A stretch of DNA of 64,000 bases, from the sequence record NC_028780.1; one strand, given 5' to 3'. This document shows, one piece after another, positions 6,171-54,975 of the stretch. Under the pieces are notes generated by a model. It was not told where the DNA came from and did not search any database. It was given only the letters and a program-made list of their open reading frames with translations. How positions within the stretch are numbered: the first letter of the stretch is position 1; every line of letters begins with the position of its first letter. This DNA comes from Escherichia phage slur07. Position numbers and translations under genes: made by a program.

Positions 6171-6632
6171 ATGATTATTAATGAAAACTCTTGGCACTAT
6201 AAATTATTCAAATTGTTTAACGATGAATGGCAACGACCTAAGACATTATGCGCATATTTTTGGTCTATTGCCATTCCTACATTTTTCGTTTCTATTTTTG
6301 GGTGTGCTATACTCGTAGGGTTAACAATTATTTGTGCAGAAAGCCTACAACGTTGGCTTATTTTCGGTAGTTTATGGACTCTTCTTCCATCGGCATTTAT
6401 ACTTGCACTTTTGGTTGTTTTACTTATTATCGGTTCATTTGTTATTCCTGCACATTTGCGTGAAAAATATAAAGATTATAAATGGAAAAAGGATTATGCT
6501 TTACACGTAGAAAATATTGATAGAGCGTATAAAGGTTTACCTCCTATTCAACCCAAGAAATCGATTATCGTCGAATTTTTAAAAGCTCGTAAAGCTAAAG
6601 TATGTCCTGTTATTGAATATAAGGCTGAATGA
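6171..6632 (+). CDS. integral membrane protein
   Basis: 153 aa; three hydrophobic segments (CAYFWSIAIPTFFVSIFGCAILVGLTIIC; WLIFGSLWTLLP; ILALLVVLLIIGSFVIPA). Confidence 0.5.
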   Translation: MIINENSWHYKLFKLFNDEWQRPKTLCAYFWSIAIPTFFVSIFGCAILVGLTIICAESLQRWLIFGSLWTLLPSAFILALLVVLLIIGSFVIPAHLREKYKDYKWKKDYALHVENIDRAYKGLPPIQPKKSIIVEFLKARKAKVCPVIEYKAE

Positions 6633-7641
6633 TGAAAACAGTAATGAAAAGCTATTTTGGTAGTCATCTTTATGGAACTTCTACCCCAGAATCTGATGTA
6701 GATTTTAAAGAAATTTTTGTTCCTCCTGCTCGCGATATTCTTATCGGAAATGTCAAAGAGCACATGAGTAAAAACACTAACAACACATCATCTAAAACAC
6801 TAAAGATGATATTGACCATGAACTATACAGTCTTAAATATTTCTTTAAATTAGCAGCAGATGGTGAAACTGTAGCATTGGATATGCTTCACACTCCACCT
6901 GAACTAGTGGTTAAATCTGATTTGCCTGATGTGTGGAAGTTTATTCAAGACAACCGTTCTCGTTTTTATACGACTAACATGAAATCCTATTTAGGATATG
7001 TCCGCAAGCAAGCTTCTAAATACGGCGTCAAGGGTTCTCGTTTGGCTGCATTACGTGATGTATTGAAAGTAGTTAATCAAATCCCTGAGCAATGGGTTGA
7101 TTACCAAGAAGACGGTTCCATTAAGCAGCGTCGTACTAAAGTTGAAGATATTAAGCATCGTCTTCCAGAAAACGAATTCTGTGAATGGGTGTTCCATAAT
7201 CATGAGAAAACAGGTCCACAAACGTTCTATACAGTGCTGGGTCGTAAATATCAGACAACGCTTTCTCTTATTGAGCTTAAGCAGTCACTGAACAAATTAG
7301 ATGCTGAATATGGTGAACGTGCTCGTAAGGCCGAAGCTAATGAAGGTATTGATTGGAAAGCACTAAGTCATGCTTGTCGTGGTGGACTTCAACTATTGGA
7401 AATTTACAAAACTGGCGACTTGATTTATCCACTCCAAGATGCTCCATTTATTCTCGACGTGAAGTTGGGTAAACATCCATTTAAAACAGTTCAAGAGTTT
7501 TTGGAAGATGTGGTCGATCAAGTAGAAGCAGCATCTACTGAAGCTTCTAAGAATGGTATGCCTAAAACAGTAGACATGAGTTTCTGGGATGACTTCCTTG
7601 AGAAGGTCTATCTTGAAAACCACCGAAGTTATTATAAATGA
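6629..7641 (+). pseudogene. pol-beta-type nucleotidyltransferase, split by a frameshift
   Basis: ORF 6629..6853 has GSHLYGTSTPESDVDF NTase motif; frame-shifted continuation open 6796..7641 (..DDIDHELYSLKYFFKLAADGETVALDMLHTP.., ..HACRGGLQLLEIYKTGDL..); junction at A4 run 6794-6797. Confidence 0.55.
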
Positions 7642-51147: not shown

Positions 51148-51830
51148 TGTTTGATTTTATTATAGATTTTGAAACAATGGGAAGTGGTGAAAAAGCAGCG
51201 GTTATTGATTTAGCTGTAATTGCTTTTGACCCTAATCCAGAAGTGGTTGAAACATTTGATGAATTAGTTTCACGTGGCATTAAAATCAAATTTGATTTAA
51301 AAAGCCAAAAAGGACATCGTCTTTTTACTAAAAGTACTATCGAATGGTGGAAGAATCAATCTCCTGAAGCTCGAAAAAATATTGCACCATCCGATGAAGA
51401 TGTAAGCACTATCGATGGTATTGCAAAATTTAATGATTACATCAATGCACATAACATCGATCCTTGGAAATCTCAAGGTTGGTGCCGTGGAATGTCGTTT
51501 GATTTTCCAATTTTAGTCGATCTCATTCGCGATATTCAACGTCTTAACGGCGTTTCCGAGAATGAGCTTGATACATTTAAGTTAGAACCTTGTAAATTCT
51601 GGAATCAGCGTGATATTCGTACCAGAATTGAAGCACTTCTGCTTGTTCGTGATATGACCACGTGTCCTCTTCCAAAAGGAACTTTAGATGGATTCGTTGC
51701 ACATGATTCTATTCATGACTGTGCGAAAGACATTCTGATGATGAAGTATGCTTTGCGATACGCTATGGGTCTTGAAGATGCTCCGTCAGAGGAAGAATGC
51801 GATCCTCTATCTCTTCCAACTAAACGATAA
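51147..51830 (+). CDS. dexA: exonuclease A (DEDD family)
   Basis: 227 aa (T4 DexA length); N-terminal DFETMG exonuclease motif. Confidence 0.85.
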   Translation: MFDFIIDFETMGSGEKAAVIDLAVIAFDPNPEVVETFDELVSRGIKIKFDLKSQKGHRLFTKSTIEWWKNQSPEARKNIAPSDEDVSTIDGIAKFNDYINAHNIDPWKSQGWCRGMSFDFPILVDLIRDIQRLNGVSENELDTFKLEPCKFWNQRDIRTRIEALLLVRDMTTCPLPKGTLDGFVAHDSIHDCAKDILMMKYALRYAMGLEDAPSEEECDPLSLPTKR

Positions 51831-51836
51831 AAAGTT

Positions 51837-51866
51837 GTTTACTTCCTCGGTTAGTTATGGTATTAT
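51837..51866 (+). promoter_or_regulatory. T4-type early promoter
   Basis: GTTTAC 51837-51842, 18 nt, TGGTATTAT (-10 51861-51866). Confidence 0.65.
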
Positions 51867-51893
51867 AACACCATAGCTACTGAGGATAATAAA

Positions 51894-52397
51894 ATGAAAA
51901 TTTATCGTGTTGAATCATCATTTAGTATTCTTAATTATGAAGATGCTATAACAATACGTCGAGATCTTTGTGTTCAAATAACTCCGTACAGGAGTATAAT
52001 AGATTCATGGAGTGAAGAGTGGTTATTACGCGTAGGTTATGACAGACCCAATTTTATGCATCATAGTAATGATAATAAAAGAATTCCTGTGCCGCATGAA
52101 GACAAATTATTAGTTAAAAATGCTAATATAGCAATTAATACTAATTTTGAGAAAGAAGAATATGTAGGCGTAGATCACTATATTCCAGGATGGTTTATAG
52201 CTCTTTATCATTTTGCTTTCGCTAGCGAATATGATATGATGAGATGGTTCACACGAGAAGAGCGTGAAGAATTAGCTTCTAAAGGATTTTATCTTGCTGT
52301 ATACGAAGTTCCTGAAGATGAAGTTATCATTGGTGGGCACCAAGTAATGTTCCGCAAATCCCATGCCGAATTAAAAGGCTTTATTACCTTAGATTAA
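51894..52397 (+). CDS. hypothetical protein
   Basis: 167 aa ORF downstream of early promoter. Confidence 0.45.
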   Translation: MKIYRVESSFSILNYEDAITIRRDLCVQITPYRSIIDSWSEEWLLRVGYDRPNFMHHSNDNKRIPVPHEDKLLVKNANIAINTNFEKEEYVGVDHYIPGWFIALYHFAFASEYDMMRWFTREEREELASKGFYLAVYEVPEDEVIIGGHQVMFRKSHAELKGFITLD

Positions 52398-52407
52398 AGA
52401 GAAAATT

Positions 52408-52845
52408 ATGATTAAAAATAATGCTGTTTATCAATTGAAAAAATTTGATGAAATTAAGAATTTTTCGGTACTGTCTAATACAGCTCATAATAAGTTTTGT
52501 GAACTTCTTGGTTTAACTGGCGGATATCCTTTTACTGTTATTAGTGTTAATAGCGGAATTCTTATCGGTATGATGTATATTGAAATTAGAAACTATTATG
52601 GAATGGTATCACCGCTTATTATTTATGAAAAAGATTTTAGTCTATTGACAGAAATTGAAAAACCTGAAGACCCGACTGATTTGTTGTGTAAGGCAGTTTA
52701 TATTCGTCGTCCATTCGCGAATCCGATTGGCGGTTGGGTAACTGACCAGTGGATTGAAGATGGCGTTGAACTTCTTAATGTAGTTCATGCTGGAGAGTAC
52801 TCCGTAGTTCCTCGCAGCGCAGTGATTAATGTTCGTGTAAGCTAG
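52408..52845 (+). CDS. hypothetical protein (paralog pair, shared C-terminal domain)
   Basis: 145 aa; C-terminal ..GGWVTDQWIEDGVELLNVVHAGEYSVVP.. shared with 52919..53407. Confidence 0.5.
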   Translation: MIKNNAVYQLKKFDEIKNFSVLSNTAHNKFCELLGLTGGYPFTVISVNSGILIGMMYIEIRNYYGMVSPLIIYEKDFSLLTEIEKPEDPTDLLCKAVYIRRPFANPIGGWVTDQWIEDGVELLNVVHAGEYSVVPRSAVINVRVS

Positions 52846-52880
52846 TTTACAAACTCTTGGGACCAGAGTATAATGGTCCC
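52845..52880 (+). promoter_or_regulatory. T4-type early promoter with stem-loop around the -10
   Basis: GTTTAC 52845-52850, TATAAT 52869-52874 flanked by GGGACC 52859-52864 / GGTCCC 52875-52880. Confidence 0.7.
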
Positions 52881-52918
52881 GCGGAGTATAAAATCTTTTT
52901 AACAAGTGAGAAATAACT

Positions 52919-53407
52919 ATGATTATTAATATTGGTGAATTAGCTCGTGTATCTGATAAATCCCGCTCTAAAGCAGCAGGAAAATTGGTCGAAATTGTAA
53001 GCATTCAGCTTAAACATGGCGTTAAAGATGAAGATTCTGAAGTAAAAGTGCGTATCATTCCTAAAGATGGAAAGTCTAAACCCCAGTTTGGCTATGTTCG
53101 TGCGAAATTTCTTGAATCTGCGTTTTTGAAAGCTGTTCCTGCTAAAGTAATTGAAACGATTGATACTTCACATGTAGGCGTAGACTTTAAGTGGAAACTC
53201 GGTCAAGCTATTAAGTTCATTGCTCCTTGCGAATTTAAATTTATCAAAGATGATGGAAAGGCTGCTTATACTCGTGCTATGTGTGGATATATTACCGATC
53301 AATGGGTAGAAGATGGCGTTAAGTTATACAATGTGGTATTTTTAGGAACATACAAAGTCATTCCTGAAAGTTGGATTAAACACTATAGCAATGCTCTCTA
53401 TGCATAA
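52919..53407 (+). CDS. hypothetical protein (paralog pair, shared C-terminal domain)
   Basis: 162 aa; C-terminal ..CGYITDQWVEDGVKLYNVVFLGTYKVIP.. Confidence 0.5.
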   Translation: MIINIGELARVSDKSRSKAAGKLVEIVSIQLKHGVKDEDSEVKVRIIPKDGKSKPQFGYVRAKFLESAFLKAVPAKVIETIDTSHVGVDFKWKLGQAIKFIAPCEFKFIKDDGKAAYTRAMCGYITDQWVEDGVKLYNVVFLGTYKVIPESWIKHYSNALYA

Positions 53408-53420
53408 AGTTTAAAATTTT

Positions 53421-53507
53421 TTCATAAAACTATATACATCAGTAGTTGATTATGGTACTATATCAATATCAACTACTGATACAGAAAACAACTTGGAGAA
53501 TAAAATG
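53421..53507 (+). repeat. PeSL-like promoter/leader cassette with 11-bp perfect stem (copy 5)
   Basis: CAGTAGTTGAT 53440-53450 / ATCAACTACTG 53468-53478 enclose TGGTACTAT (-10 53456-53461); -35 degenerate; leader ends ..cttggagaataaaATG 53505. Confidence 0.7.
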
Positions 53508-53774
53508 GAAAACTTAATTATCATCGAGCAATCTTTCAACGATTATGGTATGGCTTACGGTTATCGTGCGATAATGGAAGATTCTCGTGGATGTGTTATC
53601 GATATTGCTGAATGTAAAGATTTACTGCAGCTTTTGAAGATTGTTCGCAAAAATTGGGATTGTGAAAACATTAAAGCTCGTGTTGTAACGGAAGAAGAAA
53701 CTGTTTTTCATGATGTAAAATTTGCCAAAGGTGCTGCTACTCTTCTGAAACGCATCGCTCCACTGTTCAATTAA
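53505..53774 (+). CDS. hypothetical protein
   Basis: 89 aa from ATG 53505 downstream of cassette. Confidence 0.45.
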   Translation: MENLIIIEQSFNDYGMAYGYRAIMEDSRGCVIDIAECKDLLQLLKIVRKNWDCENIKARVVTEEETVFHDVKFAKGAATLLKRIAPLFN

Positions 53775-53787
53775 TGAGGAAATTGTA

Positions 53788-54003
53788 ATGAAACGTAAAA
53801 TTGTTCAGAATTGCACTAATGACGAATTTGAAGATGTATTATTTGATCCAGATTTGGTAGTAGTTCAAAAGGAACACACCATCAAGTTTACTCACTTGAC
53901 TTCGGTTTATGTGTATGAAAAGGTTGGTGATAAACAACCGATTTATGGTGTATTCCGTGAAATCACTGAAGACGGTACAACTTACTGGAAGGAAATTTAT
54001 TAA
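53788..54003 (+). CDS. hypothetical protein
   Basis: 71 aa ORF. Confidence 0.4.
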
Positions 54004-54422
54004 TGGCTATTAGATTTGAAGTTAATAAATGGTATCAATTTAAAAATAAACAAGCTCAAGAAGCTTTTATTAAAGACCATACTGATAACGGAATCTACGC
54101 ACGACGTTTAGGTATGGAACCTTTTAAAATTTTAGATGTTGACCATCTCAGTCGTCCTACTAAAATTGTGACATCTACTGGCACGGTTGGATACGCAACA
54201 GGCGGTGATATCCTTGATGAAAACTTTATCTGGCTCTCCACGAATGAAGCAGAGTTCTTTGACGAAGTTGGAAATCCATATCAAGCGTCCGAAGAGCAAA
54301 AGCAGGAAGAGCAAGAACAAATAGAAGATTTCACAGAATTCCCGGTCATGAAAGTTACTATTGAAAATAATGAACAGGCATGGTCCTTGTATCAGATGTT
54401 GAAAGCACACTTTAAGGAATAA
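54003..54422 (+). CDS. hypothetical protein
   Basis: 139 aa ORF; acidic C-terminal region. Confidence 0.4.
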
Positions 54423-54603: not shown

Positions 54604-54975
54604 ATGTTTAAAATCGGTAAGAAGTATCGCATTCGTGAAGGTGAAGAACAGAAATATCTATTTTCTGCTAGTAATAGGAATAGTTCTATTAATGCTGTAA
54701 TATTGACTAGTGAATTTATCGTTGAAGATATGAAAGGTCATAATGTTACAATGATTAGTACAGCATCTGGAAATGATGGAAAAATTCTTCATAGTTGTCA
54801 GAGTAATGTTCTAATTTATGATGAAGAATTTGACTTCTTCAAAGAAGTTTCCGAAGATTTTGATTTTGAATGTACTATTACTATGAAATCTGGTGACCCT
54901 CTTTCTTTTACAGTTAAAGATGAAAGAAGTCGCTTGAGAATTATTAGTCTTCTTCAAGCCATTAAATTTGAGTGA
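54604..54975 (+). CDS. hypothetical protein
   Basis: 123 aa ORF. Confidence 0.4.
   Translation: MFKIGKKYRIREGEEQKYLFSASNRNSSINAVILTSEFIVEDMKGHNVTMISTASGNDGKILHSCQSNVLIYDEEFDFFKEVSEDFDFECTITMKSGDPLSFTVKDERSRLRIISLLQAIKFE

What the first reader, a model, noticed from the sequence alone, without database searches (positions are those of the whole stretch)
52408..53407. Adjacent genes sharing a C-terminal TDQW.EDGV.L.NVV domain with different N-terminal halves
The two proteins share a ~40-aa C-terminal module (..GGWVTDQWIEDGVELLNVVHAGEYSVVP.. versus ..CGYITDQWVEDGVKLYNVVFLGTYKVIP..) but differ upstream, and they are separated by an early promoter with a stem-loop. This looks like domain shuffling.
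Basis: seen in the sequence. Interest (0 to 1): 0.4.

Follow-up and report, generated by a model that had tools for sequence, protein, structure and literature searches.

The report
T4 motB.1 and motB shared domain
Two neighbouring early genes of a T4-like phage (motB.1 and motB) do share a C-terminal protein domain behind unrelated N-terminal halves, but this was published in 2021, so the finding is real and ordinary.

Summary
The window is a T4-like coliphage (98.8% identical to phages slur02/04). The two ORFs are motB.1 (52408-52845, 145 aa) and motB (52919-53407, 162 aa).

The shared C-terminal segment is real. BLASTP gives E=6e-12 and profile-profile comparison gives 98.9% probability.

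It is also old. The two copies are 54% identical at DNA level and 37% at third codon positions.

Patterson-West et al. (Viruses 2021;13:84) already reported this shared domain and suggested a duplication, so the finding is already known.

Domain shuffling is supported at family level. The module always sits directly upstream of motB, while the N-terminal part of that upstream gene varies: GoF/LSm-like barrel(s) or a KOW-like domain.

The promoter and hairpin are real. The motB early promoter and a RegB cleavage site are known from experiments, and I show the stem covaries. The hairpin is not the breakpoint of the paralog homology. It only bounds mosaic allele tails.

By-products:
- The T4 reference motB.1 (119 aa) carries a single extra G that 13 other T4-type records lack. 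True T4 MotB.1 is 143 aa.
- AlphaFold models suggest an SH3/Tudor-like module, not the predicted OB-fold.

The parts
51838..51888 (+). Early-type promoter upstream of motB.2 (TTTACT-17-TATTAT). A hairpin encloses the -10 box, followed by a GGAU plus A-rich putative RegB site in the ribosome-binding region. It has the same composite design as the motB spacer.
   Evidence: Promoter scan. Inverted repeat I4. RNAfold gives -23.5 kcal/mol with 17 pairs enclosing the -10 box. PMC1702504 reports a GGAU cleaved by RegB at T4 motB.2.
51894..52397 (+). motB.2 (167 aa). It is co-oriented, lies 10 nt upstream of motB.1 with no promoter between them, and is probably co-transcribed with motB.1.
   Evidence: ORF list. 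phrog_1106. T4 annotation.
52408..52845 (+). motB.1 (145 aa): an N-terminal GoF/LSm-like barrel (aa 1 to about 83) plus the shared C-terminal module.
   Evidence: phrog_2333, E=7.6e-68. AF2 model with pLDDT 82. PMC12152347 for the N-terminal fold.
52684..52833 (+). Shared module in MotB.1 (aa 93-142; core GWVTDQWIEDGVELLNVVH). Predicted as a five-stranded SH3/Tudor-like barrel.
   Evidence: hhalign 98.9%, E=3.8e-17. Strands at 96-99, 107-117, 120-127, 130-135 and 139-141, with a 3-10 turn before the last strand. Foldseek matches to tandem Tudor domains.
52846..52874 (+). motB early promoter: -35 TTTACA at 52846-52851 (GTTTAC overlaps the motB.1 stop codon TAG at 52843-52845) and -10 TATAAT at 52869-52874.
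   Evidence: 11/12 consensus match. The sequence differs from T4 at 2 positions in the spacer. The motB promoter was seen by primer extension in T4 (PMC1702504).
52853..52887 (+). Stem-loop. The core stem is 52858-52865 paired with 52874-81, with the -10 box in the loop and 3' arm. The lower stem pairs ACUCU (52853-57) with GGAGU (52883-87).
   Evidence: RNAfold -20.5 kcal/mol, z=-3.3. Covariation across 12 spacers: 96/96 cells paired, 5 of 8 pairs with compensatory double changes, slid controls 32-45% paired.
52883..52893 (+). RegB endoribonuclease site: GGAG followed by the A-rich GUAUAAAAU context, in the motB 5' leader 33 nt (32 intervening nt) before the ATG.
   Evidence: The GGAG and the 11 nt after it are identical to T4. 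The only nearby difference is one base, 2 nt 5' of GGAG: window GCGGAG, T4 GTGGAG. Efficient RegB/S1 cleavage of T4 motB mRNA at GGAG was shown in vivo and in vitro (PMC1702504). The site is conserved in all spacer types.
52919..53407 (+). motB (162 aa): a basic KOW-like N-terminal barrel (aa 1 to about 72), a disordered linker (aa 70-86) and the shared C-terminal module.
   Evidence: Pfam PF17613 at 363 bits. AF2 model with pLDDT 79.8. 100% identical to P0124. Function from PMC6070864 and PMC7827196.
53198..53386 (+). Shared module in MotB (aa 94-156; core GYITDQWVEDGVKLYNVVF). It has a 13-aa extension of the first beta-hairpin relative to MotB.1.
   Evidence: hhalign. Alignment A4. Strands at 97-109, 115-131, 134-141, 144-149 and 153-156.
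53438..53480 (+). Second intergenic stem-loop downstream of motB (20-nt arms, 85% complementary). A GGAG ribosome-binding site of the next ORF follows it.
   Evidence: Inverted repeat I1. Conserved in T4.

Best explanation
motB.1 and motB are tandem paralogous early genes in a dispensable, hyperplastic region of a T4-like phage. Each encodes a small protein made of two beta-barrel domains.

Origin (inferred from the family survey):
- The two proteins share an ancient C-terminal SH3/Tudor-like module of about 50-63 aa, found almost only in Tevenvirinae.
- The most likely history is a tandem duplication of an ancestral 'KOW-like N-terminal domain + module' gene.
- In the upstream copy, the N-terminal domain was later replaced by a GoF/LSm-like barrel, repeatedly. 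The likely donor is the GoF paralog family that sits about 1 kb downstream (goF, 39.1).
- The module, the spacer and motB stayed fixed in place.

Function:
- Shown in the literature: MotB is a basic, non-specific DNA-binding protein that alters H-NS binding.
- Inferred: MotB.1 is neutral to acidic, so the shared module probably supplies a common interaction or scaffold function rather than DNA binding. The N-terminal domain would set the nucleic-acid or partner specificity.

The 73-nt spacer is a T4-type promoter-stem-loop cassette (PeSL-like):
- Shown: it carries the motB early promoter, a selected hairpin whose loop and 3' arm contain the -10 box, and a RegB GGAG site directly after the hairpin.
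- Inferred: transcripts that start at the motB promoter lack the 5' arm, so GGAG is exposed. Read-through transcripts from the motB.2 promoter can form the hairpin, which pairs GGAG with CUCU.
For: Identity of the locus: 98.8% to slur02/04 with motB.2/motB.1/motB/cef annotation, and the same gene order as T4.

Homology of the modules: BLASTP E=6e-12, Pfam and PHROG cross-hits, hhalign 98.9%.

Age: 54% nucleotide identity and 37% at third codon positions. Only 12 of the 22 identical residues share the third base.

Fixed position of the module with variable N-termini: 17 loci plus the window. Architectures of 143-145, 166-169, 180-183 and 244-252 aa, and KOW + MotB.1-type module (P0122, P0004, P0235-P0245).

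Ancestral KOW + module:
- Distant representatives nearly all have a KOW-like N-terminus.
- P0244 passes Pfam KOW (24.8 bits, cutoff 22.3) and also carries the module.
- Intermediates combine MotB.1-type motifs with the MotB-type hairpin insertion (P0236, P0239-P0241).

MotB.1 N-terminal domain related to GoF/39.1: the window's 39.1 hits phrog_2333 at E=8e-4, and PMC12152347 reports the shared fold.

Fold: AF2 pLDDT of 80-82, five strands with a 3-10 turn between strands 4 and 5. Top PDB matches for both proteins are tandem Tudor domains and KOW6-7.

Charge: MotB N-terminal domain pI 9.8 and module pI 8.9; MotB.1 N-terminal domain pI 6.5 and module pI 4.8.

Spacer: promoter, hairpin covariation, experimental motB promoter and RegB cleavage, recurrence of the cassette design in the window.

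Published functions of MotB.
Against: - The direction of the domain replacement rests on parsimony over a small family (33 clusters at 50% identity), not on a rooted tree.
- Both N-terminal domains are SH3-like small barrels. Extreme divergence from one ancestor, with no replacement, cannot be fully excluded by sequence methods.
- Foldseek E-values are only about 1e-3 and TM-scores 0.25-0.41, so the Tudor/SH3 assignment is at topology level only.
- No experiment addresses what the module binds.
- Deletion of T4 motB.1 has no phenotype in laboratory conditions.
- The transcription start was not mapped here, so the claim that proximal transcripts lack the 5' arm is inferred from standard -10 to +1 spacing.
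- The lower stem that pairs GGAG shows only one-sided changes (CUCU to CUUU), not compensatory ones.
Confidence: 0.75

Rival explanations
1. Whole-gene tandem duplication followed by divergence only. Both N-terminal halves descend from the same ancestral small barrel and have drifted beyond sequence recognition, so no domain shuffling occurred.
For: Both N-terminal domains are predicted as five-stranded SH3-like barrels. Both whole proteins hit the same tandem-Tudor templates.
Against: - hhalign between the two N-terminal domains gives 0.2% probability.
- The MotB.1 N-terminal domain has detectable homology to the GoF/39.1/Frd.2 family instead, and carries an inserted helix at residues 24-37.
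- Proteins with a clearly MotB-like KOW N-terminus and a clearly MotB.1-type module exist (P0122, P0004, P0235). The N-terminal and module types therefore assort independently.
- At least five different N-terminal architectures occupy the same genomic slot.
Confidence: 0.1
2. Recent recombination or gene conversion between the two genes, mediated by the promoter-hairpin cassette, copied the module from one gene to the other.
For: - PeSL cassettes are proposed recombination sites in T4-type phages (PMC2839356 and PMC4122927).
- Allele tails of motB.1 diverge up to TAG/TTTAC, and everything from there on is conserved.
- T4 is a mosaic of window-type and L003-type sequence within the module.
Against: - The two modules are only 54% identical in DNA, and 37% at third positions.
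- The homology boundaries lie inside the ORFs, about 160 nt and about 320 nt from the hairpin.
- MotB-type and MotB.1-type modules form distinct, consistently different subfamilies in every locus examined.
- Other indels in the locus map to short direct repeats inside ORFs, not to cassettes.
Confidence: 0.03
3. The module is a mobile domain that independently fused to unrelated N-terminal domains at different places. In this reading the module moves, not the N-termini.
For: The module is found behind several kinds of N-terminal domain. Module-only mini-ORFs of 43-73 aa exist.
Against: - In all 18 loci the MotB.1-type module is at the same position, immediately upstream of motB.
- The mini-ORFs examined are deletion products or truncated gene calls. 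BYEP01 P0005 fuses the motB.2 start to the motB.1 end.
- The module is always C-terminal.
Confidence: 0.07
4. The similarity is chance or reflects compositional bias.
For: None beyond the short length of the match.
Against: E=6e-12 pairwise and 98.9% profile probability. Eight alignment columns are invariant across both subfamilies. The one further candidate in the window, at 6910-7116, was tested and rejected as chance. That shows the test can discriminate.
Confidence: 0.01

Closest known systems
T4 MotB / MotB.1 as described by Patterson-West, Son, Hinton et al. (Viruses 2018;10:343, Viruses 2021;13:84, PMC7827196)
   Same: These are the same genes and the same observation: a conserved C-terminal domain shared by MotB and MotB.1, different N-terminal domains, several N-terminal categories, and a suggested duplication. 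MotB here differs from T4 MotB at 6 of 162 residues (about 96% identical).
   Different: - The paper predicted an OB-fold for the C-terminal domain from HHpred. The AF2 models and Foldseek here point to an SH3/Tudor-like barrel.
- The paper worked from the 119-aa T4 reference MotB.1, which lacks most of the module because of one extra G in the reference record.
- The window's MotB.1 is full length (145 aa) but lacks the 22-aa 'HIDMDLVSMYVAPVEK' linker present in the 167-aa alleles.
GoF / MotB.1 / Frd.2 LSm-like fold family (Comput Struct Biotechnol J 2025;27:2051, PMC12152347)
   Same: The N-terminal half of the window's MotB.1 belongs to this family. The window also encodes goF (54003-54422) and a 123-aa goF-like 39.1 (54604-54975).
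   Different: That paper treats only the N-terminal domains and describes the C-terminal domains as 'of various structures'. It does not discuss the module shared with MotB.
PeSL (promoter-early stem-loop) cassettes of T4-type phages (Arbiol et al. 2010, PMC2839356; Comeau et al. 2014, PMC4122927)
   Same: [quoted passage not shown] It lies between the upstream stop codon and the downstream ribosome-binding site and ATG, in a hyperplastic region. The promoter matches the published T4/PST consensus TTTACW-N17-TAYWAT.
   Different: - Terminator or attenuator activity and recombination at this particular cassette were not tested.
- No U-tract follows the stem.
- The 3' side of the structure is coupled here to a RegB GGAG site.
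- The indels seen in this locus are not at cassettes.
Tandem Tudor / tandem KOW proteins (53BP1, UHRF1, Spt5 KOW6-7)
   Same: They have two consecutive five-stranded SH3-like barrels. They are the top Foldseek matches for both MotB and MotB.1.
   Different: Sequence identity is only 10-19%, E is about 1e-3 and TM is 0.25-0.41. There is no evidence for an aromatic methyl-lysine cage or any shared function. The resemblance is at fold level only.

Membership tests
Pfam PF17613 (motB, modifier of transcription) | Score above the gathering threshold (25 bits) against the family HMM | tested here: met
   MotB scores 363.4 bits over 1-162 of 162. MotB.1 scores 32.8 bits, but only over residues 104-139 (profile positions 118-153). 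MotB.1 is therefore a member through the module only.
PHROG 2333 (MotB.1 family) and PHROG 1671 (MotB family) | Full-length match to the family profile | tested here: met
   MotB.1 matches phrog_2333 at E=7.6e-68. MotB matches phrog_1671 at E=3.1e-77. Reciprocal partial hits cover only the C-terminal parts.
GoF/Frd.2/MotB.1 LSm-like N-terminal domain family | N-terminal bent five-stranded antiparallel barrel homologous to GoF | tested here: met
   - AF2 places strands at 7-10, 42-49, 55-61, 67-73 and 80-83, with a helix at 24-37.
- The window's goF-like 39.1 hits the MotB.1 profile phrog_2333 at E=8e-4 over the N-terminal region.
- BFVD Foldseek lists GoF.
- PMC12152347 describes the family.
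KOW domain (Pfam PF00467) for the MotB N-terminal domain | KOW motif HMM match above the gathering score (22.3 bits) | tested here: inconclusive
   The window's MotB gives no KOW hit at E<=1. The distant family member P0244 passes at 24.8 bits (residues 3-27), and P0253 scores 15.1 bits. Published HHpred results assign KOW to MotB residues 6-45. The fold is SH3-like.
OB-fold, cold-shock DNA-binding type (published prediction for the shared C-terminal domain) | Five-stranded Greek-key barrel with OB topology; structural neighbours are OB proteins | tested here: not met
   The 50 best PDB matches for both models are dominated by tandem Tudor, SAWADEE, Agenet and KOW proteins, mixed with unrelated folds. 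Only one low-probability entry contains a cold-shock protein (8xyf, probability 0.44). The module shows a beta-meander with a 3-10 turn between strands 4 and 5, which is typical of SH3-like barrels. Caveats: these are predicted models and the Foldseek E-values are borderline.
Tudor / 'Royal family' SH3-like barrels | SH3-like five-stranded barrel; for functional Tudor domains, an aromatic cage that binds methylated Lys/Arg | tested here: inconclusive
   Fold-level matches have probability 0.99-1.0 but E of 9e-4 to 1e-2 and TM of 0.25-0.41. The aromatic cage could not be examined because no coordinates were available to the script tool.
PeSL (promoter-early stem-loop) cassette | Intergenic sigma-70-like early promoter | tested here: met
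   TTTACA-17-TATAAT, 11 of 12 positions. It fits the T4/PST PeSL consensus TTTACW-N17-TAYWAT. The motB promoter is seen by primer extension in T4.
PeSL (promoter-early stem-loop) cassette | Stable stem-loop within or overlapping the promoter | tested here: met
   -20.5 kcal/mol, z=-3.3. 96/96 cells paired and 5 of 8 pairs with compensatory changes. The stem-loop overlaps the -10 box, one of the two commonest PeSL classes.
PeSL (promoter-early stem-loop) cassette | Stem-loop acts as a terminator or attenuator; cassette mediates recombination of flanked ORFs | not testable with these tools
   Only indirect evidence is available. Allele tails change exactly at TAG/TTTAC. No U-tract follows the stem. 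Other local indels are not at cassettes.
RegB endoribonuclease target site | GGAG followed by an A-rich sequence of about 7-11 nt, in an early transcript | tested here: met
   GGAGUAUAAAAU at 52883-52894, identical to T4 from the GGAG through the 11-nt element. T4 motB mRNA is the model substrate for RegB/S1.

The most novel reading that the evidence does not exclude
The covarying hairpin built around the motB -10 box may make RNA fate depend on which promoter the transcript came from.
- Read-through transcripts from the motB.2 promoter would fold the hairpin. It pairs the RegB GGAG site with CUCU, and after any cleavage it would leave motB.2-motB.1 mRNA with a protective 3' stem-loop.
- Transcripts started at the motB promoter lack the 5' arm and would expose GGAG to RegB/S1.

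The same design recurs at several other early promoters in this window. It could therefore be a general T4 device that couples early promoters, RegB sensitivity and cassette recombination.

Separately, the shared SH3/Tudor-like module might dock both MotB and MotB.1 onto one common host target, such as H-NS/StpA.
Probability: 0.2. Interest if true: 0.5.

Novelty: already known. Interest (0 to 1): 0.2.

Why it matters
The finding as stated adds nothing to the literature. The shared MotB/MotB.1 C-terminal domain and the duplication idea were published in 2021.

Three by-products could matter to people who work on T4 early genes:

1. The reference T4 genome (AF158101 / NC_000866) truncates MotB.1 at 119 aa through one extra G that is absent from 13 other T4-type records. 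If the published 13.8-kDa 'MotB.1' constructs follow the reference sequence, they lack about two thirds of the conserved module. Negative functional results would then need repeating with the 143-aa protein.

2. The module looks SH3/Tudor-like rather than OB-like. That changes which interactions one would test.

3. The promoter-embedded hairpin is under clear selection and is physically coupled to the RegB site. This gives a testable link between PeSL cassettes and RegB-dependent mRNA decay.

Tried and rejected
1. A database search with the 67-aa module alone returned only 5 candidates because of the word-index limit. I replaced it with full-length queries and an exhaustive profile search.

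2. A possible third copy of the module at window 6910-7116 (tblastn E=0.004-0.017) was rejected. It lies in a nucleotidyltransferase (phrog_388, E=7e-95), and the profile comparison gives 0.8% probability.

3. Distant homology between the two N-terminal halves, or between an N-terminal domain and the module, was tested with hhalign. All comparisons gave probability of 3.4% or less.

4. The long multi-stretch hits of the profile search (P0246, P0247, P0250-P0252, E=1e-5 to 1e-4) were set aside. The one inspected, P0247, is a translated tandem repeat.

5. I checked whether cassette-mediated excision explains the 89-aa ORF (53505-53774) that T4 lacks. It does not. T4 has an internal deletion of about 208 nt between ATGGAAAA and ATGTAAAA inside the ORF, and both flanks including the hairpin are intact.

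6. The OB-fold assignment of the module is not supported by the fold searches.

7. The hairpin is not a canonical intrinsic terminator. No U-tract follows the stem, and the terminator scan did not report it.
Full report
**Identity of the locus**

The window is a T4-like coliphage (Tequatrovirus). The stretch 51800-53900 is 98.8% identical to phages slur02, slur04 and slur11, and 577 phage records match it. Gene order is the same as in T4: dexA, motB.2, motB.1, motB, cef, goF, 39.2, 39.1, 39. All these genes lie on the + strand here.

The two ORFs of the finding are motB.1 (52408-52845, 145 aa) and motB (52919-53407, 162 aa). The MotB protein is 100% identical to a cluster of 319 database sequences.

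**Check of the observation**

The shared C-terminal segment is real and far beyond chance:
- BLASTP gives 22/43 identities, E=6e-12.
- Each protein finds the other as the only significant extra hit in a six-frame search of the window.
- Pfam PF17613 (motB) matches MotB.1 at residues 104-139, above the gathering score.
- PHROG profiles of each family hit the other protein's C-terminal part.
- Profile-profile comparison of family alignments gives 98.9% probability, E=3.8e-17. It aligns MotB 94-156 with MotB.1 93-142, with a 13-residue insertion in MotB.

It starts at MotB 'LGQAIKF' and MotB.1 'LCKAVYI'. The N-terminal halves have no detectable sequence relation (0.2% probability).

**Already published**

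Patterson-West, Son, Hinton and colleagues (Viruses 2021;13:84, PMC7827196) state that T4 MotB and MotB.1 share a conserved C-terminal domain but have different N-terminal regions. They also report that homologs fall into four categories by N-terminal type, and that one gene may have arisen by duplication of the other.

A 2025 paper (PMC12152347) shows that the MotB.1 N-terminal domain is an LSm/SH3-like barrel shared with GoF and Frd.2. The finding as worded is therefore already known.

**Age and nature of the event**

In codon register the two modules are 54% identical in DNA. By codon position the identities are 57%, 70% and 37%. Among the 22 identical residues, only 12 share the third base. 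This is an old duplication kept similar by selection on the protein. It is not a recent exchange or gene conversion.

**Family survey**

Full-length searches found 206 MotB.1-related and 108 MotB-related clusters. An exhaustive profile search of 1.84 billion representatives found only 33 clusters. The module lies at or within about 15 residues of the C-terminus in essentially all genuine single-stretch hits.

Architectures that carry the MotB.1-type module (DPTDLL...GWVTDQWIEDGVELLNVVH...VVPRS) are:
- one GoF-like barrel (143-145 aa, as in the window)
- the same with an extra 22-aa 'HIDMDLVSMYVAPVEK' linker (166-169 aa)
- the linker motif at the N-terminus plus a different GoF-like barrel (180-183 aa)
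- two barrels (244-252 aa)
- a MotB-like KOW N-terminus (P0122, P0004, P0235-P0245)

Distant members mostly have the KOW-like N-terminus. One of them, P0244, passes the Pfam KOW threshold. Some members combine MotB.1-type motifs with the MotB-type hairpin insertion (P0236, P0239-P0241).

In 17 IMG/VR loci and in the window, a MotB.1-type module gene always lies directly upstream of motB. RB69-like loci have three module genes in a row.

The simplest reading is that an ancestral KOW + module gene duplicated in tandem. The upstream copy then had its N-terminal domain replaced, more than once, by GoF-family barrels. Paralogs of that family (goF, 39.1) lie about 1 kb downstream in the same region. 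Domain shuffling is thus supported, but it is the N-termini that were exchanged. The direction of change is an inference from parsimony.

**Fold**

AlphaFold2 models built on family alignments reach pLDDT 79.8 for MotB and 82.0 for MotB.1. Each protein has two five-stranded beta units, each with a short 3-10 turn between strands 4 and 5. In MotB a disordered linker (residues 70-86) joins them.

For both models the best PDB matches are tandem Tudor domains (53BP1, UHRF1), SAWADEE/Agenet proteins and Spt5 KOW6-7. Foldseek probability is about 0.99-1.0, but E is only about 1e-3 and TM is 0.25-0.41, because the relative domain orientation differs. OB-fold proteins are essentially absent from the lists.

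I therefore read the shared module as an SH3/Tudor-like small barrel. This differs from the OB-fold predicted by HHpred in the 2021 paper. It remains a topology-level statement on predicted models.

**Function**

Shown in the literature: MotB is an early, toxic, tight but non-specific DNA-binding protein. It copurifies with H-NS/StpA, changes H-NS footprints and improves phage fitness. Deletion of motB.1 gives no phenotype in the laboratory.

From the sequence: the MotB N-terminal domain has pI 9.8 and its module pI 8.9. The MotB.1 N-terminal domain has pI 6.5 and its module pI 4.8. The columns invariant across both subfamilies are L, D, W, E, G, L, N and V (the D.W.E.G..L.N.V core), which are acidic and aromatic rather than basic.

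Inference: the shared module is more likely a common scaffold or partner-binding unit than the DNA-binding surface. The N-terminal domain would give each paralog its own specificity.

**The spacer (52846-52918)**

- TTTACA-17-TATAAT at 52846-52874 is the best promoter match in the region, 11 of 12 positions.
- GTTTAC overlaps the motB.1 stop codon.
- The spacer differs from T4 at two positions only.
- The T4 motB promoter, and efficient RegB cleavage of motB mRNA at GGAG, are known from experiments (PMC1702504).
- That GGAG with its A-rich tail is at 52883-52894.

The inverted repeat GGGACCA/TGGTCCC places the -10 box in the loop and 3' arm.

Across 12 distinct spacers the stem is kept by compensatory change. 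Examples are GGGACCA/TGGTCCC, GGGGTCA/TGACCCC and GAGAGCCAT/ATGGCTCTC. All 96 cells pair, 5 of 8 pairs change on both sides, and slid controls pair in only 32-45% of cells. The structure itself is therefore selected.

In all three spacer types the predicted lower stem pairs GGAG with CUCU or CUUU. With standard spacing, a transcript from the motB promoter would start at about 52881 and so lack the 5' arm. Only read-through RNA from the motB.2 promoter could form the hairpin. This step is inferred, not shown.

The same design recurs at the motB.2 promoter (51838-51888, -23.5 kcal/mol) and at several other early-type promoters in the window: 4122, 9132, 44549 and 61897. There are 22 promoter matches on the + strand against 3 on the - strand. 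This fits the published PeSL cassettes of T4-type phages, including the T4/PST promoter consensus and the class with the stem-loop over the -10 box.

From my own knowledge of T4: promoters placed inside hairpins that sequester downstream signals in read-through RNA are established for the late promoters of genes e, soc, 49 and I-TevI.

**Does the hairpin mark the breakpoint?**

For the paralog similarity it does not. The homologous stretch ends 12 nt before the -35 box in motB.1, and begins about 320 nt after the hairpin in motB.

For allelic mosaicism the answer is partly yes. DNA alignments of motB.1 alleles show that T4 follows the window-type sequence to about codon 135, then switches to the L003-type tail. 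All divergent tails end exactly at TAG/TTTAC, after which the spacer and motB are nearly identical. The conserved module core and the cassette thus both act as homology anchors.

Other indels in the locus are not at cassettes:
- T4 lost about 208 nt inside the 89-aa ORF at 53505-53774, between ATGGAAAA and ATGTAAAA.
- Phage BYEP01 fuses the motB.2 start to the motB.1 end at a shared 'YED/IED'.
- The window's MotB.1 lacks the 22-aa linker found in the 167-aa alleles.

**T4 reference frameshift**

T4 MotB.1 is annotated as 119 aa and ends '...TDQWIGRWR*'. The cause is one extra G (GGATTGGAAGATGG in the reference, GGATTGAAGATGG elsewhere) at nt 346/347 of the gene.

Only AF158101 and NC_000866, which are the same sequence, carry it. 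Thirteen other T4-type records span one base fewer: T4T, three KJ4776xx records, MT984581, MZ375356, two OL9647xx records, three OZ records, RB55 and RB59.

MT984581 is identical to the reference over 516 nt except for that base, and it encodes a 143-aa MotB.1 with the full module. The 13.8-kDa reference protein is therefore most likely a sequencing error or a private mutation.

The 2025 study reports a 13.8-kDa MotB.1 and cites NC_000866.4 coordinates. If its constructs follow the reference, they lack about two thirds of the shared module. That is an inference I could not verify.

**Verdict**

- The core finding is already known, so interest is low.
- There are three modest by-products: the reference frameshift, the SH3/Tudor-like rather than OB fold, and a covarying promoter-embedded hairpin coupled to the RegB site.

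Noticed in passing
window 52755-52760; L001 (NC_000866) record position about 7305; L002 (MT984581): The T4 reference genome has one extra G inside motB.1. This truncates the protein to 119 aa in the middle of the conserved module. Thirteen other T4-type records lack the extra base, and the one checked base by base (MT984581) encodes a 143-aa protein. The published '13.8 kDa MotB.1' probably reflects a sequencing error or private mutation in the reference.
   Followed up: yes
window 53505-53774 (+); the ORF list gives 53493-53774 from an upstream TTG: An 89-aa ORF (phrog_3720, unknown function) lies between motB and cef. In T4 it is reduced to a remnant by an internal deletion of about 208 nt between ATGGAAAA and ATGTAAAA. 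A GGAG ribosome-binding site and a 20-nt-arm hairpin (53438-53480) precede it.
   Followed up: partly
window 54604-54975 (+) and 54003-54422 (+): Gene 39.1 is 123 aa here but 65 aa in the T4 annotation. It is a paralog of goF: both hit phrog_622, and 39.1 also weakly hits the MotB.1 profile. T4's 39.1 may be another truncated or mis-annotated gene.
   Followed up: no
window 4122, 9132, 34914, 44549, 51838, 52846, 61391, 61897 (+ strand promoter starts): A composite motif recurs: a T4-early promoter (TTTAC.-N17-TA..AT), a hairpin that encloses the -10 box, and a 3' arm or immediate flank that contains GGAG/GGAGG (ribosome-binding or RegB site). There are 22 promoter matches on the + strand and 3 on the - strand. 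This is consistent with PeSL cassettes.
   Followed up: partly
P0005 (Escherichia phage BYEP01, 43 aa); L006 2206-2427; L018 180-395: Module-only mini-ORFs exist. BYEP01 fuses the first 16 codons of motB.2 to the last 27 of motB.1, which is a deletion at a shared YED/IED. Two metagenomic loci have 71-73-aa ORFs that start at the linker motif. The published 29-aa RB69 peptide may be a similar remnant.
   Followed up: partly
P0009, P0025, P0032, P0033, P0035, P0237, P0240 and others; absent from window MotB.1 between residues 85 and 86: A short conserved motif of about 20 aa ('[IF]D.D[VI].S.Y..P[VI].P[IL]') recurs. It appears as a linker before the module or at the N-terminus of MotB.1-family proteins. 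The window-type allele has lost it. Its role is unknown.
   Followed up: no
window 6629-6853 and 6877-7641 (+): The nucleotidyltransferase homolog (phrog_388, profile 351 positions) appears split into a 74-aa ORF and a 254-aa ORF. The 254-aa part matches only profile positions 112-339. This could be a frameshift or a pseudogene.
   Followed up: no
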